Source: the human T2T-CHM13v2.0 reference genome, Homo sapiens
Length of the DNA: 64,000 bases
NCBI RefSeq assembly: GCF_009914755.1
Contig: NC_060947.1
Strand: one strand, 5' to 3'
A program made the position numbers and the translations under genes. The notes beneath the pieces were generated by a model, which saw only the letters and a list, made by a program, of their open reading frames with translations, searched no databases and was not told where the DNA came from. This document shows, piece after piece, positions 1 to 64,000 of the stretch (position 1 is its first letter; each line of letters starts with the position of its first letter).

Positions 1-241
1 GGGTCAGGTAGTTCCCTTTCCTAGTCAAAGAAAGGGGTGATGGACGGCACCTGGAAAATCGGGTCACTCCCACCCTAATACTGTGCTTTTCCGACGGGCT
101 TAAAAAATGGCACACCAGGAGATTATATCCCACACCTGGCTCAGAGGGTCCTACGCCCACGGAGTCTTGCTGATTGCTAGCACAGCAGTCTGAGATCAAA
201 CTGAAAGGCGACAGCAAGGCTGGGGGAGGGGTGCCCGCCAT
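1..241 (-). CDS. L1 ORF0 (antisense ORF in 5'UTR), open to the window edge
   Basis: ATG at 241-239; hand translation MAGTPPPALLSPFSLISDCCASNQQDSVGVGPSEPGVGYNLLVCHFLSPSEKHSIRVGVTRFSRCRPSPLSLTRKGNYLT matches primate ORF0; no stop before position 1. Confidence 0.8.
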   Translation of the reverse strand, partial: MAGTPPPALLSPFSLISDCCASNQQDSVGVGPSEPGVGYNLLVCHFLSPSEKHSIRVGVTRFSRCRPSPLSLTRKGNYLT

Positions 242-571
242 TGCCCAGGCTTGCTTAGGTAAACAAAGCAGCTGGGAAGCTCCAACTGGGTGGAGCCCAC
301 CACAGCTCAAGGAGGCCTGCCTGACTCTGTAGGCTCCACCTCTGGGGGCAGGGCACAGACAAACAAAAAGACAGCAGTAACCTCTGCAGACTTAAATGTC
401 CCTGTCTGACAGCTTTGAAGAGAGCAGTGGTTCTCCCAGCATGCAGCTGGAGATCTGAGAATGGGCAGACTGCCTCCTCAAGTGGGTCCCTGACCCCTGA
501 CCCCCGAGCAGCCTAACTAGGAGGCACCCCCCAGTAGGGGCAGACTGACACCTCACACAGCCAGGTACTCC

Positions 572-699
572 TCTGAGACAAAACTTCCAGAGGAACGATC
601 AGACAGGAGCATTCGCGATTCACGAAAATCTGCTGTTCTGCAGCCACCGCTGCTGATACCCAGGGAAACAGGGTCTGGAGTGGACCTCTAGCAAACTCC
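572..699 (+). promoter_or_regulatory. ~129-bp L1 5'UTR segment carrying the ZNF93 binding region (lost in younger L1PA3/PA2/HS)
   Basis: Sequence TCTGAGACAAAACTTCCAGAGG...CTAGCAAACTCC sits between ACTCC direct repeats (567-571, 695-699), where L1HS reads directly GGGTATTCCAACAGACC. Confidence 0.8.
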
Positions 700-825
700 A
701 ACAGACCTGCAGCTGAGGGTCCTGTCTGTTAGAAGGGAAACTAACAAACAGAAAGGACATCCACACCAAAAACCCATCTGTACATCACCATCATCAAAGA
801 CCAAAAGTAGATTAAAACCACAAAG

Positions 826-1833
826 ATGGGGAAAAAACAGAGCAGAAAAACTGGAAACTCTAAAAAGCAGAGCACCTCTCCTCCTTCAAAGGAACGCAGA
901 TCCTCACCAGCAATGGAACAGAGTTGGACGGAGAATGACTTTGATGAGTTGAGAGAAGAAGGCTTCAGACGATCAAACTACTCCAAGCTACAGGAGGAAA
1001 TTCAAACCAAAGGCAAAGAAGTTAAAAACTTTGAAAAAAATTTAGAAGAATGTATAACTAGAATAACCAATACAGAGAAGTGCTTAAAGGAGCTGATGGA
1101 GCTGAAAGCCAAGGCTCGAGAACTACGTGAAGAATGCAGAAGCCTCAGGAGCCAATGCAATCAACTGGAAGAAAGGGTATCAGTGATGGAAGATGAAATG
1201 AATGAAAGGAAGCCAGAAGGGAAGTTTAGAGAAAAAAGAAATGAACAAAGCCTCCAGGAAATATGGGACTATGTGAAAAGACCAAATCTACGTCTGAGTG
1301 GTGTACCTGAAAGTGACGGGGAGAATGGAACCAAGTTGGAAAACACTCTGCAGGATATTATCCAGGAGAACTTCCCCAATCTAGCAAGGCAGGCCAACAT
1401 TCAGATTCAGGAAATACAGAGAATGCCACAAAGATATTCCTCGAGAAGAGCAACTCCAAGACACATAATTGTCAGATTCACCAAAGTTGAAATGAAGGAA
1501 AAAATGTTAAGGGCAGCCAGAGAGAAAGGTCGGGTTACCCACAAAGGGAAGCCCATCAGACTAACAGCGGATCTCTCGGCAAAAACTCTACAAGCCAGAA
1601 GAGAGTGGAGGCCAATATTCAACATTCTTAAAGAAAAGAATTTTCAACCCAGAATTTCATATGCAGCCAAACTAAGCTTCATAAGTGAAGGAGAAATAAA
1701 GTCCTTTACAGACAAGCAAATGCTGAGTGATTTTGTCACCACCAGGCCTGCCCTAAAAGAGCTCCTGAAGGAAGCACTAAACATGGAAAGGAACAACTGG
1801 TACCAGCCACTGCAAAATCATGCCAAATTGTAA
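826..1833 (+). CDS. L1 ORF1p (coiled coil-RRM-CTD), uninterrupted 335 aa
   Basis: MGKKQSRKTGNSK...; REKG and ARR motifs kept; IKR (9 bp) missing relative to the 338-aa canonical protein; YPAKLS changed to YAAKLS. Confidence 0.93.
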   Translation: MGKKQSRKTGNSKKQSTSPPSKERRSSPAMEQSWTENDFDELREEGFRRSNYSKLQEEIQTKGKEVKNFEKNLEECITRITNTEKCLKELMELKAKARELREECRSLRSQCNQLEERVSVMEDEMNERKPEGKFREKRNEQSLQEIWDYVKRPNLRLSGVPESDGENGTKLENTLQDIIQENFPNLARQANIQIQEIQRMPQRYSSRRATPRHIIVRFTKVEMKEKMLRAAREKGRVTHKGKPIRLTADLSAKTLQARREWRPIFNILKEKNFQPRISYAAKLSFISEGEIKSFTDKQMLSDFVTTRPALKELLKEALNMERNNWYQPLQNHAKL

Positions 1834-1896
1834 AGGCCATCGAGACTAGGAAGAAACTGCATCAACTAACGAGCAAAATAACCAGCTAACATCATA

Positions 1897-5721
<3,825 letters not shown>

Positions 5722-6207
5722 ACAATGAGAACACATGGACACAGGAAGGGGAATATCTCACTCTGGGGACTGTTGTGGGGTGGGGGTAGTGGGGAGGGAT
5801 AGCATTAGGAGATATAGCTAATGCTAAATGATGAGTTAATGGGTGCAGCACACCAGCATGGCACATGTATACATATGTAACTAACCTGCACATTGTGCAT
5901 ATATACCCTAAAACTTAAAGTATAATAATAAAAATAAATAAAAATAAAATAAAAATTAAAAAAAAATACATCGACATTTCTATGTGATGTATGCCATCTC
6001 AGTTTTCAGTATATGCATCAGAGAACCACATTCATATTATTTGGCAGGGTCTCAAGGTTTTATAAAAACACTAGAAGTTCATATATGAGTCATTTATTTC
6101 TATAAAATATAGGAGGAAAATCTGGAATCGTGGGAAAGATGGGGGCAGGTAGATTTTGCTGGCAGTCTTTTCTCATCTTTTCATATTTCTTCTTGCATTT
6201 GCTACAG

Positions 6208-6279
6208 ACTGGCCAAGTTAGTCTGTTAACCTACATTCATTGCTGTAGGAGTAGGTGCGAGGAAACACTCAGGTTGCAG
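6208..6279 (+). pseudogene. Candidate degenerate exon encoding the first part (C1-C4) of an EGF module
   Basis: Long polypyrimidine tract plus TACAG acceptor (6206-6207); strong CAG|GTATGG donor; ends TGC AG (Cys-Arg, phase 2); Cys codons at 6224, 6241, 6256 and 6275 lie in two frames, with TAA at 6227. Confidence 0.5.
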
Positions 6280-6679
6280 GTATGGAACTGGAAGCCTAGG
6301 CCTCTTCAACCTCTTCAGAGCAGTGATAGAACTAGTGTAGCCAAAGTGAATACAGGTATAAGCCGTAGGCAAAATGCTGACAATTTAAAAAACAGTCTTG
6401 AGACAGCCCTTGTGGATGAGCCTTATTTTTCTTCATACGTGCCACATCTTCATTGCCTAATGATTGGGAAATCTTGTCAGCCTTCTGCATGCTGACTCAG
6501 TGTGTTAAAACCTGTAGGCTTTAGAGTGCTTGCTCAGGTGGGAAATGGGACAACATAAAACTCTTGAAGGTCTTAAGGAGAAATGTGATGGTTGAGTAAC
6601 AATGAAATGTTTGATTCATTCAAGGGACACCATTTGTTTTTTCCTAATATGTGAGCTTTTTCTATTTCTCTCTATGTAG

Positions 6680-6871
6680 ATGTCCAAATTTCAGAAGTCA
6701 GTGGAAAAATTATGGGTACATGGGGACCAAATGTGACCAACTCTGGAGTACTCTGGATCTGATTTTAGTAGTGGCATTGCTTGGAATACGATTGGCTTTA
6801 ATAGTTGGTGTAACAATCCAGACTATGTACTGCTGTAAAAAGAAGTCAAAGAAGAATATAGCTGACCACTA
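6680..6871 (+). pseudogene. Exon encoding EGF C5-C6 loop, transmembrane helix and basic cytoplasmic start (meprin-beta/IMPG2/ErbB-ligand-like architecture)
   Basis: TTTTTCTATTTCTCTCTATGTAG acceptor; 192-bp open exon (R)CPNFRSQWKNYGYMGTKCDQLWSTLDLILVVALLGIRLALIVGVTIQTMYCCKKKSKKNIADH; GTAAGA donor at 6872. Confidence 0.72.
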
Positions 6872-7304
6872 GTAAGAAATTTCTAAATACCTTGAGAATG
6901 ATGGCAAATCTCTTGTGAGATCAGCAAATGAATCCAGAAATAATGAATATAATTTATCATGCATATTACATACAGGTGGTATGTTCTCTTCCACATTCAT
7001 CAACATCGTAATTAAATTCTAACAAAAGTCAGATTAACACTGCCACACCAGACATATTTTGTTCAGGATTTGGATAAAGTAAAAACTGGAAAGTCACTTC
7101 CCCAGACAGAAGCCAAGTGTAATTCACCAGATAACTGTCCTACTTCAGTGTTTTCCTTCCCACCAAGGGTCAGTATTTGTGTGCACCCCCATATACTGTC
7201 CTAATAGTGTGTGTTGGTTGGGGGTGGGAGACGGCGTACCATTACCTCCCACTCACTCCCTAATCCCAGCAACAATGCCAGATAAATGGAAAGAGGAATC
7301 CAAT

Positions 7305-9279: not shown

Positions 9280-9373
9280 AGAACAGAGGCGTTCATCAAG
9301 ACTCCAACCTTAGCAGAATTCTGCATATGATTTTGATACTGATATGAGGCCTCCTCAACCTGATCAAGGCCGG
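9280..9373 (+). pseudogene. Candidate cytoplasmic-tail exon with in-frame stop
   Basis: TTGTTTTTCAAATGTGCCAG acceptor, CGG|GTAAAC donor; phase 2 to 0; EQRRSSRLQP*QNSAYDFDTDMRPPQPDQGR, TAG at 9311. Confidence 0.4.
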
Positions 9374-63046: not shown

Positions 63047-64000
63047 CCTCCCGAGTTTGATATGGTCACTACTTCCAGAGAAACCTGCCTTCACTAACTA
63101 GCTGCTGTTTTTTTTTTTTCTGTACCCTCATGTGCACATATGAGTGGAGTGCCACACTCTTATAGCCACTACCATCGCCACTCTTTCTGAGACCGGATCT
63201 CAAAAATAATCTCACCATTGCCGTTACTCTTTGGCCCTGCCATCTACTTTATAATTTTCTACTCTTTAAGTTTTGCTTAGAACAATTTTCTATATCTACC
63301 TAGTTGGATCAAGGACTGGGTTTGGATTAATAAGTTTAAATTCGGTCCAAACTGGTAAAAAAAAAAAAAAAAAGGAGGCACACAGCCATCCCTCTACATT
63401 TGGAGACCCTTACTGCTTCCAAAGGAATCCTCCCTAACACATCCACACTGCTGAAGCTAAAGAGTCTGTGTTTAGGTCCCCCAAATCCAAATTTTATATA
63501 GGCCTTGTTTCATCCCAACAGATATACTACTCTTTCTTGCCTGATAAGAGAAAGAAGCCTAGACCAATGAAATTAAGTCCACCATGGAAGGAAAGGTGGC
63601 CCCTTTAAGAACATGGAATGGTCTGGAACCCTTGATTCTGCCCACTATGACAACAGGAAGCAAAGGTCAGAGGGACTGGCCATAGGCACATGTGAAGCTT
63701 TCTTGCCAATCTTCATTGAACTCACACTTCAAAAGTCATGGTTTTCTCTTTGTTTTATTGTAATTTTCTGTTTTATTATAAAGAAGATTGCAGAAAAGAG
63801 GCAGAATAGGAGAGCTGAAAGACAAAAAAAGAGTATCTAAACAACAGAGGACACATACTGGGTCTGTCTTTTTTTTCCTGTTTGTATCGGTTTGTCTTTT
63901 CATATAATACTTAACCTCTATCTTACCCTTGATATCATTACCAATCTAAGAATCTCTACCCCTCAAGGGTGGTTGTGGGCATTAGATGAAACTTAGGAGT

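What the first reader, a model, noticed from the sequence alone, without database searches (positions are those of the whole stretch)
6208..6877. Split EGF module plus transmembrane exon pair: remnant of an ErbB-ligand/meprin-like membrane protein gene
Seen in sequence: exon 6680-6871 has a strong acceptor and a GTAAGA donor, and is 192 bp and fully open. It encodes C-x14-G-x-K-C (CPNFRSQWKNYGYMGTKC), a short stalk, a ~23-aa hydrophobic stretch and YCCKKKSKK. An exon-like segment 400 bp upstream (6208-6279) ends TGC AG|GTATGG, so splicing gives Cys-Arg-Cys. Established knowledge: an intron between EGF Cys4 and Cys5, with the TM in the second exon, is the hallmark of ErbB ligand precursors and of MEP1A/B, IMPG2 and MUC3/12/17. 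From memory, the meprin-beta end (CRC...YMGERC...STRDTIVIAV...YCTRKK) is similar. Inference: this is the 3' part of such a gene. It appears decayed: the upstream exon has a TAA and out-of-frame cysteines, there is an Arg in the TM (CGA), and a stop follows ADH whether or not the donor is used. I cannot assign a gene name.
Basis: partly seen in the sequence, partly recalled or inferred. Interest (0 to 1): 0.85.

Follow-up and report, generated by a model that had tools for sequence, protein, structure and literature searches.

The report
Dead human copy of 2010106E10Rik
The flagged exon is a real leftover of a small membrane-protein gene that many other vertebrates still keep intact, but the human copy is broken in many places and is an ordinary dead gene.

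Summary
Window 6680-6871 (+) is a real exon remnant. Its 63-aa translation matches about 270-aa membrane proteins of many mammals at E 1e-25 to 1e-14 (71-81% identity). The rat member is named "similar to RIKEN cDNA 2010106E10". It is exon 3 of 7 and carries the second half of the EGF-like domain, the transmembrane helix and KKKSKK.

I found five more human exon remnants on the + strand, at -3617..-3539, 9280-9373, 64961-65043, 65632-65769 and 71997 onward. They keep canonical splice sites. Together with the exon 3/4 junction they carry six in-frame stops, two 1-nt deletions and a 9-nt insertion.

Exon 2, the first half of the EGF-like domain, was found nowhere.

The EGF-like/TM module is homologous to that of meprin beta (hhalign 97.4%, E 1.4e-11) and shares its intron position and phase. 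The family has no protease domains.

The last exons lie inside lncRNA LOC101928128, which looks like the still-transcribed 3' remnant.

Verdict: a unitary pseudogene, absent from the RefSeq table supplied.

The parts
1..5968 (+). In-window part of a full-length L1 retrotransposon (whole element about -210..5968) inserted in the intron between exon 1 and exon 3. It belongs to the locus history, not to the gene. OUTSIDE THE WINDOW, upstream: the exon 1 remnant (signal peptide) at window coordinates -3617..-3539, + strand.
   Evidence: L1: Pfam finds L1 ORF1 domains (E 2.6e-61) and RVT_1 (E 2.5e-30). A-rich tail at about 5900-5968. A 15-of-16 target-site duplication ATACAT[G/C]GACATTTCT flanks it. 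Exon 1: tblastn with 28 orthologs gave 12 hits, best E 0.006, 65% identity over residues 1-23. The translation is MVDRLFILS*ILFISWCFLTVRCE*, with the ATG kept, two in-frame stops (TGA, TAA) and donor C|GTAAGA.
6208..6279 (+). It looks like an exon but is not homologous to exon 2 of the family; most likely a chance pseudo-exon in the intron.
   Evidence: Splice-like sites read. No ortholog hit in tblastn apart from one noise row (P0023 residues 154-234 at 6211-6453, E 2.9). Not among the top hits of the frameshift-tolerant alignment. Degenerate-nucleotide score 12.0-12.8 against a background of 20-27.
6680..6871 (+). Exon 3 remnant: EGF-like C-terminal half (Cys5 to Cys6), transmembrane helix and polybasic KKKSKK. 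It is open, but ends in a junction stop codon (TA|A).
   Evidence: E 1.8e-25, 81% identity; profile E 1.4e-34; squirrel isoform P0048 skips exactly this exon. 8 of 64 residues are not seen in any of 24 orthologs, including W73G (6714-6716) and P95L (6780-6782) at invariant columns, plus Gly-to-Arg in the TM (6789-6791).
9280..9373 (+). Exon 4 remnant (start of the cytoplasmic tail), with an in-frame TAG at 9311-9313.
   Evidence: tblastn E down to about 1e-16. Exon-4 profile E 1.3e-9. Acceptor tgtgccag| and donor |gtaaac. Translation EQRRSSRLQP*QNSAYDFDTDMRPPQPDQGR.
63777..63861 (+). 3' part of LOC101928128 exon 1. It is homologous to an alternative internal exon used in a bat isoform of the gene. 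OUTSIDE THE WINDOW, downstream, + strand: exon 5 remnant at 64961-65043 (open); exon 6 remnant at 65632-65769 (TGG-to-TGA plus a 1-nt deletion); exon 7 remnant at 71997-72236 (in-frame TGA, 9-nt insertion, 1-nt deletion at the terminal Asn-Tyr-stop, AATAAA at 72212).
   Evidence: Alternative exon: P0022 residues 162-186 match in tblastn at E 0.034. The three-frame translation shows IIKKIAEKRQ in one frame and KEYLNNRGHIL in another, against bat DYKKQAEKES...KTYLNNRGLRT. The donor TACTGG|gtctgt coincides with the annotated exon end. Exon 5: (E 4e-6); the jerboa protein P0044 lacks exactly this segment. Exon 6: (two HSPs in different frames). Exon 7: E 1.7e-6; E 1e-13, 70% identity; its end coincides with the annotated end of LOC101928128 (72236, from the hub table).

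Best explanation
Window 6680-6871 is exon 3 of a human unitary (unprocessed, single-copy) pseudogene. It lies on the + strand, antisense inside a SATL1 intron and downstream of APOOL.

The ancestral gene is the orthologue of mouse RIKEN 2010106E10. Where the gene is intact it encodes a type I membrane protein of about 270 aa, made of:
- a signal peptide;
- a roughly 60-aa, 8-cysteine EGF-like ectodomain with N-glycosylation sequons;
- one transmembrane helix and a polybasic KKKSKK stop-transfer patch;
- a Pro/Ser-rich cytoplasmic tail of about 150 aa ending in a conserved ...PYRIGRxQMKxNY.

The EGF-like/TM/juxtamembrane module is homologous to the C-terminal module of meprin beta, but there are no protease domains.

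In human the gene cannot make this protein. Exon 1 has two stops. Exon 2 is gone. The exon 3/4 junction codon is TAA. Exons 4, 6 and 7 each carry a stop, and exons 6 and 7 also carry indels.

Shown here: homology, exon map, lesions and the meprin-beta relationship. Inferred: the 3' exons survive as the spliced lncRNA LOC101928128, started from a new first exon that absorbs an old alternative exon. Also inferred: the loss happened on the primate lineage before or within the anthropoids.
For: (1) Homology. 25 mammalian proteins match at E 1.8e-25 to 1.9e-14, with 71-81% identity to the exon peptide. A full-length horse query finds 54 family members, including rat 'similar to RIKEN cDNA 2010106E10', turtle, kiwi and frog. 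A profile search over 1.84e9 representatives finds 82 hits at E <= 1e-3, including proteins with the same cysteine pattern and C-terminal motif that I take to be fish (the library gives no taxa).

(2) Synteny. Three gene models fuse APOOL/MIC27 to exon 2 onward of this gene: Microcebus P0009, Heterocephalus P0014 and Sus P0051. In human, APOOL lies just upstream on the same strand (hub table).

(3) Exon map. tblastn and a whole-genome search place the remnants of exons 1, 3, 4, 5, 6 and 7 in order on the + strand. Exon limits agree with ortholog isoforms that skip exon 3 (P0048) or lack exon 5 (P0044). All AG/GT sites are kept.

(4) Lesions read directly from the sequence: six in-frame stops counting the junction codon, two 1-nt deletions and a 9-nt insertion.

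(5) Exon 2 is absent from 134 kb on both strands and from the whole-genome search.

(6) No other copy. The whole-genome search with the horse protein gives, besides this locus, only the chr18 EGF/TM exon (E 0.019) and a noise hit on chr8 (E 4.1).

(7) Relaxed constraint. 8 of 64 exon-3 residues are unseen in 24 orthologs, 2 of them at invariant columns. 19 of the 24 orthologs have 0-4 such residues.

(8) Meprin-beta link.
Against: Exon 3 itself is fully open, and every remaining splice site is canonical. Taken alone, that could suggest function.

No orthologous primate DNA could be examined, so neither the timing of the loss nor the fixation of each lesion was tested.

The Microcebus model reads exon 4 in a shifted frame, so even the lemur copy may be damaged, or the model may be wrong.

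I could not see GENCODE or Ensembl pseudogene tracks, or the internal exon coordinates of LOC101928128. The lncRNA link therefore rests on its first exon, its annotated end and the polyA signal.

Identifying the chr18 exon as MEP1B rests on linkage to astacin exons plus recalled knowledge that MEP1B is on 18q12.
Confidence: 0.93

Rival explanations
1. One reading: 6208-6279 is the heavily decayed EGF N-half exon (exon 2), so the split EGF pair is still present.
For: The segment has a strong polypyrimidine acceptor and a GT donor. It ends TGC AG|, which would give Cys-Arg-Cys on splicing, the same junction as lemur ...FCR|C. It lies in non-repeat DNA 400 bp upstream of exon 3, a plausible position.
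Against: There is no detectable similarity to exon 2 peptides at either the protein or the degenerate-nucleotide level. It scores 12-13 against a background of 20-27, whereas neighbouring remnants of the same age score 49-100. At 72 nt its length does not fit the exon 1/exon 3 phases, and the real exon is about 106 nt. The MEP1B intron also happens to end in tgcag, so that junction motif is weak evidence.
Confidence: 0.04
2. A still-functional, unannotated human coding exon, belonging either to a shortened protein or to a SATL1-region gene.
For: A 192-nt open exon with good splice sites. The downstream exons are transcribed as LOC101928128 (hub table).
Against: Exon 1 has stops at codon 10 and at its last full codon. 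Exon 2 is missing. The junction codon is TAA, and more stops and frameshifts follow downstream. Invariant Trp and Pro are replaced and an Arg sits in the TM. No anthropoid protein appears in three database searches.
Confidence: 0.01
3. A duplicated or processed fragment of MEP1B (meprin beta) rather than a separate gene.
For: NCBI names several truncated orthologs 'meprin A subunit beta-like'. There is real homology to the MEP1B EGF/TM exon.
Against: Identity to MEP1B is only 25-27%, against 71-81% to 2010106E10Rik orthologs. Introns are retained, so it is not processed. The family runs from frog to mammals with its own signal peptide and long tail, and without astacin or MAM domains.
Confidence: 0.02

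Closest known systems
Mouse RIKEN cDNA 2010106E10 gene (2010106E10Rik) and its unnamed vertebrate orthologues ('uncharacterized protein LOC...', 'EGF-like domain-containing protein')
   Same: Exon-3 peptide identity of 71-81% among the hits. Same exon boundaries. Same neighbourhood beside APOOL. X-linked in mouse (chrX 109.67 Mb in mm9, + strand; passage of PMC4197816).
   Different: The human copy is disabled: six in-frame stops, two frameshifting deletions and loss of exon 2. The mouse gene is expressed in small intestine, with 544 reads at an Apobec-1-edited 3'UTR site (PMC4197816, passage seen).
Meprin beta (MEP1B), C-terminal EGF-like domain, TM and short tail
   Same: The module is homologous: C-x-C...WYMGxxC, then a TM, then a basic patch. 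hhalign gives 97.4%, E 1.4e-11, over 71 columns at 32% identity. Meprin-beta-like fragments are retrieved by the family profile at E 8e-7 to 3e-4. Both have a phase-2 intron in the Arg/Lys codon between Cys4 and Cys5.
   Different: The family has no astacin, MAM or MATH domains (Pfam found none). The mammalian Cys5-Cys6 loop is 16 residues, against 12 in the meprin-beta sequences. There are two extra cysteines and a conserved cytoplasmic tail of about 150 aa.
ErbB-ligand precursors (EGF/TGF-alpha family)
   Same: A type I precursor with one membrane-proximal EGF-like domain split by an intron between Cys4 and Cys5, with the TM in the next exon. That this layout is typical of the family is recalled knowledge.
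   Different: The cysteine spacing here is C-x7-C-x5-C-x8-C-x-C-x16-C with G-A-K-C. This does not fit the recalled ligand consensus CX7CX4-5CX10-13CXCX8GXRC. No sequence match to any ligand appeared in the PDB search, Pfam or the whole-genome search.
Human unitary pseudogenes (the class defined in Zhang et al. 2010, Genome Biol 11:R26; only the search listing and abstract were seen)
   Same: A single-copy, unprocessed gene with functional orthologues elsewhere, multiple disabling lesions and retained introns.
   Different: It is not in the RefSeq table supplied with the finding.

Membership tests
2010106E10Rik orthologue family | Significant sequence similarity across the conserved EGF-like/TM exon | tested here: met
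   E 1.8e-25 to 1.9e-14, 71-81% identity; exon-3 profile E 1.4e-34.
2010106E10Rik orthologue family | Remaining exons present in order on the same strand, with the same boundaries | tested here: met
   Exons 1, 3, 4, 5, 6 and 7 were found, and the boundaries agree with isoforms P0048 and P0044. Exon 2 was not found.
2010106E10Rik orthologue family | Conserved synteny next to APOOL | tested here: met
   Indirect. Three APOOL/MIC27 read-through models (P0009, P0014, P0051) continue into exon 2 onward of this gene. The hub table places human APOOL upstream on the same strand. Orthologous genome maps were not examined.
2010106E10Rik orthologue family | Intact reading frame (a functional member) | tested here: not met
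   Six in-frame stops, two 1-nt deletions, a 9-nt insertion and a missing exon 2. It is therefore filed as a pseudogene of the family.
Unitary pseudogene | No functional paralogue elsewhere in the same genome | tested here: met
   the six-frame whole-genome search with the horse protein gives only this locus, the chr18 meprin-type exon (E 0.019, 28% identity) and one noise hit (E 4.1).
Meprin beta (astacin metalloprotease) | Astacin protease domain plus MAM/MATH domains upstream of the EGF-like domain | tested here: not met
   Pfam scan of 5 orthologs found nothing above cut-off. The proteins are only about 270 aa, with the signal peptide directly before the EGF-like domain.
Meprin beta (astacin metalloprotease) | Homologous EGF-like/TM/juxtamembrane module with the same intron position | tested here: met
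   (hhalign 97.4%, E 1.4e-11).
Pfam EGF-type domains | Match to an EGF family model | tested here: inconclusive
   No EGF model matched the human exon or 5 orthologs at E <= 10. The meprin-beta fragments also matched none at E <= 0.001, and the human MEP1B exon matched none at E <= 10. The negative result is therefore uninformative. The AlphaFold model was too poor (mean pLDDT 41) for a fold test.
ErbB ligands | Six-cysteine spacing CX7CX4-5CX10-13CXCX8GXRC (consensus recalled, not from a call) | tested here: not met
   Read from alignments: the Cys3-Cys4 gap is 8, the Cys5-Cys6 gap is 16, the motif is G-A-K-C, and there are two extra cysteines.
ErbB ligands | Receptor binding or activation | not testable with these tools

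The most novel reading that the evidence does not exclude
Humans, and perhaps all anthropoid primates, have lost a vertebrate-wide membrane protein that mice express in the gut and that carries a meprin-beta-type EGF-like/TM module. Its 3' half lives on as the spliced lncRNA LOC101928128. That RNA starts at a new promoter which absorbed an old alternative exon, and it keeps the ancestral splice sites and polyA signal. On this reading the RNA may have been retained for a function of its own, and mouse gut biology includes a surface protein with no human counterpart.
Probability: 0.3. Interest if true: 0.5.

Novelty: new member of a known kind. Interest (0 to 1): 0.35.

Why it matters
The finding gives an identity to an unannotated conserved exon. 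It also links the orphan lncRNA LOC101928128 to the gene it descends from.

It documents the human loss of an uncharacterised gene that is otherwise kept in frog, bird, turtle and many mammals, and probably in fish. That matters when mouse intestinal expression data featuring 2010106E10Rik are carried over to humans.

It also shows that the EGF-like/TM module of meprin beta exists as a free-standing small membrane protein, which is a lead for the origin of that module.

It is not a new kind of element. Unitary pseudogenes are well known.

Tried and rejected
- **Pfam and PDB on the human exon peptide:** only noise (best E 0.58, SRCR and GPCR chains).
- **PDB with the MEP1B exon:** no chain, so no solved structure covers this module.
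- **AlphaFold2 of the horse orthologue with 24 sequences:** mean pLDDT 41 and pTM 0.18. This is too poor, so I ran no fold search. Only a helix at residues 86-122 (the TM) and a short hairpin at 50-61 were predicted.
- **Search for exon 2:**
  - tblastn with 28 proteins over 134 kb;
  - exon-2 profile against six-frame ORFs of the window (best E 0.15, minus strand, noise);
  - frameshift-tolerant DP over -3546..6690 (top scores 25-34, within the shuffled-peptide null of 26-39 from 30 shuffles);
  - degenerate-nucleotide Smith-Waterman over 134 kb, both strands;
  - whole-genome search with the lemur exon-2 peptide (no match).
  - The best hit in the degenerate-nucleotide alignment, at -53320, is an Alu.
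- **L1 insertion as the cause of exon-2 loss:** rejected, because the element is flanked by a 15-of-16 target-site duplication and so was a plain insertion.
- **129-aa open frame at 6106-6495:** no Pfam match and no ortholog hit other than the one noise row noted for 6208-6279 (P0023 at 6211-6453, E 2.9). I treat it as chance.
- **Literature:** '2010106E10Rik' occurs in 3 papers and 'LOC101928128' in 1. In the two 2010106E10Rik papers whose passages I read, the gene appears only in data tables. For the third (PMC5880790) and the LOC101928128 paper I saw only the search listing.
- **Third homolog search:** it added only three short fragments, none labelled as primate.
- **Report format:** The out-of-window exons are now described inside the text of the in-window parts.
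Full report
**1. The observation**

- It is 192 nt long.
- Its acceptor is ttctatttctctctatgtag| and its donor is TA|GTAAGA.
- It sits in a 74-codon open frame (6648-6872).
- It translates to (R)CPNFRSQWKNYGYMGTKCDQLWSTLDLILVVALLGIRLALIVGVTIQTMYCCKKKSKKNIADH followed by TAG.

The only slip is the spacing, which is C-x13-G-x-K-C, not x14. The upstream segment 6208-6279 also exists as described, with a good acceptor, ...TGC AG|GTATGG, and a TAA at 6227-6229 in that frame.

**2. What the exon is**

Pfam and PDB sequence searches with the peptide gave nothing. The large protein database gave a clear answer.
- 25 mammalian proteins matched at E 1.8e-25 to 1.9e-14, with 71-81% identity.
- Most are about 270 aa and are labelled 'uncharacterized protein LOC...' or 'meprin A subunit beta-like'.
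- With the horse protein as query, 54 family members appeared. They include rat 'similar to RIKEN cDNA 2010106E10', many rodents and bats, hare, tenrec, sloth, alpaca, hippo and pig, plus a turtle, a kiwi and a frog.
- A profile of 24 members, searched against 1.84e9 representatives, found 82 proteins at E <= 1e-3. Among them are proteins with the same cysteine pattern and the same C-terminal motif, which I take to be fish; that library carries no taxa.

The alignments show the architecture:
- a signal peptide;
- an ectodomain of about 60 aa with eight invariant cysteines (C-x8-C-x7-C-x5-C-x-C-x6-C-x-C-x16-C) and two N-x-T sequons;
- a TM helix and KKKSKK;
- a tail of about 150 aa ending ...EEPEIPYRIGRVQMKPNY.

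Three gene models (mouse lemur, naked mole-rat, pig) wrongly fuse APOOL/MIC27 to exon 2 onward of this gene. That places the gene just downstream of APOOL on the same strand, as in human.

**3. The rest of the human gene**

The human assembly was searchable, and I fetched 70 kb of flanks. tblastn with 28 full-length orthologs, direct reading and a script that cut out and translated each exon give this map, in window coordinates on the + strand. Values under 1 or over 64000 lie outside the window.

| Exon | Coordinates | State in human |
|---|---|---|
| 1 | -3617..-3539 | MVDRLFILS*ILFISWCFLTVRCE*; ATG kept, two in-frame stops, donor C\|GTAAGA |
| 2 | not found | missing |
| 3 | 6680-6871 | open; spliced to exon 4 the split codon is TA\|A (orthologs have AGR, Arg) |
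| 4 | 9280-9373 | CAG-to-TAG at 9311-9313 |
| 5 | 64961-65043 | open |
| 6 | 65632-65769 | TGG-to-TGA, plus a 1-nt deletion |
| 7 | 71997 onward | in-frame TGA, a 9-nt insertion, and a 1-nt deletion that removes the ancestral ...NY-stop; AATAAA at 72212 |

Every AG and GT at these exons is retained (and the reads above). Exon limits are confirmed independently. A squirrel isoform (P0048) skips exactly exon 3, and the jerboa protein (P0044) lacks exactly exon 5.

Within exon 3, 8 of 64 residues are not seen in any of 24 orthologs. Nineteen of those 24 orthologs have 0-4 such residues. The only others reaching 10-11 are guinea pig, the unlabelled protein P0032, turtle and frog. Two of the human changes hit invariant columns, Trp73-to-Gly and Pro95-to-Leu, and a Gly in the TM became Arg.

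The whole-genome search found no second copy. This is a unitary pseudogene.

**4.

The real exon 2 encodes (P)NCTSVTDFDDCPGNITDFCPENIVCACKDGEPFC(K/R) and is about 106 nt. Nothing in the human sequence matches it.
- tblastn over 134 kb found nothing.
- The exon-2 profile on six-frame ORFs gave a best E of 0.15, on the wrong strand.
- A frameshift-tolerant protein-DNA alignment between exon 1 and exon 3 gave top scores of 25-34. These lie inside the null of 26-39 from 30 shuffled peptides.
- A degenerate-nucleotide Smith-Waterman over 134 kb on both strands gave a background of about 20-27. The region 6150-6300 reached only 12.0-12.8. The controls scored 100.4 (exon 3) and 49.2 (exon 1).
- A whole-genome search with the lemur exon-2 peptide found nothing.

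The neighbouring remnants, of the same age, are still 55-80% identical to orthologs. A surviving exon 2 would therefore have been obvious. I conclude that exon 2 was deleted and that 6208-6279 is a chance pseudo-exon.

The full-length L1 that fills -210..5968 is not the culprit. It has L1 ORF1 and RT domains and is flanked by a 15-of-16 target-site duplication, so it was a plain insertion.

**5. Relation to meprin beta**

Besides the locus itself, the only match in the human genome was an exon on chr18 (E 0.019). That exon encodes ...CRCQSGEDWWYMGERCEKRGSTRDTIVIAV...YCTRKKY. It lies 10-14 kb downstream of astacin-domain exons on the same strand. I take it to be MEP1B; the chromosomal assignment is recalled.

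The evidence for homology is:
- Pairwise BLASTP gives E 2e-10 at 25% identity for the horse protein and E 4e-9 at 27% for the human exon peptide.
- The family profile retrieves four meprin-beta-like C-terminal fragments at E 8e-7 to 3e-4.
- Profile-profile comparison gives 97.4% probability, E 1.4e-11, over 71 columns that span the EGF-like domain, the TM and the basic patch.
- In both genes the intron splits the Arg/Lys codon between Cys4 and Cys5 in phase 2.

The family is still not a meprin. It has no astacin, MAM or MATH domains, and the protein begins with its own signal peptide. It also does not fit the recalled ErbB-ligand cysteine spacing. Pfam EGF models match neither this family nor the meprin-beta fragments, so that test is uninformative. 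The AlphaFold model was too poor to test the fold (mean pLDDT 41).

**6. The lncRNA**

The hub table gives LOC101928128 as 63656..72236 (+), with four exons, the first at 63656-63861.
- The 3' part of that first exon (63777-63861) is homologous, across a frameshift, to an alternative internal exon used by a bat isoform. IIKKIAEKRQ and KEYLNNRGHIL correspond to bat DYKKQAEKES...KTYLNNRGLRT, and the donor is shared.
- The annotated 3' end, 72236, lies 19 nt after the AATAAA that follows the exon-7 remnant.
- Exons 5-7 keep their splice sites.

I infer that the lncRNA is the still-transcribed 3' half of the pseudogene. I could not see its internal exon coordinates.

**7. Function where the gene is intact**

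Nothing is published on the protein.
- '2010106E10Rik' occurs in three papers of the library. In the two whose passages I read, it appears only in tables. One is an Apobec-1 C-to-U editing target on chrX, read 544 times in mouse small intestine (PMC4197816, passage seen). The other is a cecal differential-expression list next to Fgf15 and defensins (PMC9871501, passage seen). For the third (PMC5880790) I saw only the search listing.
- 'LOC101928128' occurs in one paper (listing only).

From the anatomy I infer a glycosylated surface protein of gut epithelium with a tiny EGF-like ectodomain. Its conserved disordered tail and C-terminal motif probably recruit cytoplasmic partners. This part is inference only.

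**8. Timing and limits**

The only primate protein in three searches was the mouse-lemur fusion model. That model reads exon 4 in a shifted frame, so either the lemur copy is damaged or the model is wrong. The absence of annotated anthropoid proteins suggests an old loss, but it is weak evidence, and no primate DNA could be compared.

I could not consult GENCODE pseudogene tracks. The pseudogene may therefore already be catalogued there.

**9. Verdict**

This is an ordinary but cleanly resolved case. It is a unitary pseudogene of an uncharacterised, widely conserved vertebrate gene, and it is not in the RefSeq table supplied. The upstream exon and the '3' end of the gene' were wrong.

Interest 0.35. 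Novelty: new member of a known kind.

Noticed in passing
window 1-5968 (+), extending upstream to about -210: A full-length L1 with a 340-aa open ORF1, ORF2 split into several open-frame pieces (one with RVT_1), an A-rich tail and a 15-of-16 target-site duplication (ATACAT[G/C]GACATTTCT). It is inserted in the pseudogene's intron between exon 1 and exon 3.
   Followed up: partly
window 63656-63861 and beyond, to 72236: lncRNA LOC101928128 appears to be built from an old alternative exon plus exons 5-7 of the dead gene. Its annotated end lies 19 nt after the polyA signal that follows exon 7.
   Followed up: partly
protein P0009 (Microcebus murinus model): This APOOL/MIC27 read-through model reads exon 4 in a shifted frame (NRGIHQDSNLSIILHRLLILI, matching a shifted frame of human 9280-9345). 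Either the lemur copy is also damaged or the model is wrong.
   Followed up: no
proteins P0002 (alpaca) and P0022 (bat isoform); human L013:1719-1769 (window 65719-65769): Both proteins end in ...MGTSIL(R/Q)P.., which is the same shifted frame of exon 6 that the human 1-nt deletion produces (QIMGTSIYQPRK*). This could reflect an independent lesion in alpaca, or frame changes caused by alternative exons.
   Followed up: no
It has no Pfam match and no credible ortholog hit, and its hydrophobic start is just the translated polypyrimidine tract. Probably chance.
   Followed up: partly
protein P0134: A 50-aa protein from a JGI source is labelled 'type III secretory pathway component EscS' yet is 78% identical to this mammalian TM exon. 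It looks like host-DNA contamination with a wrong name.
   Followed up: no
protein P0130 (439 aa): This unlabelled protein carries the same membrane-proximal module (C-x-C...LWYIGERC followed by a TM and KKKRERK) after a longer ectodomain. The module may be more widely shared than meprin beta and this family.
   Followed up: no
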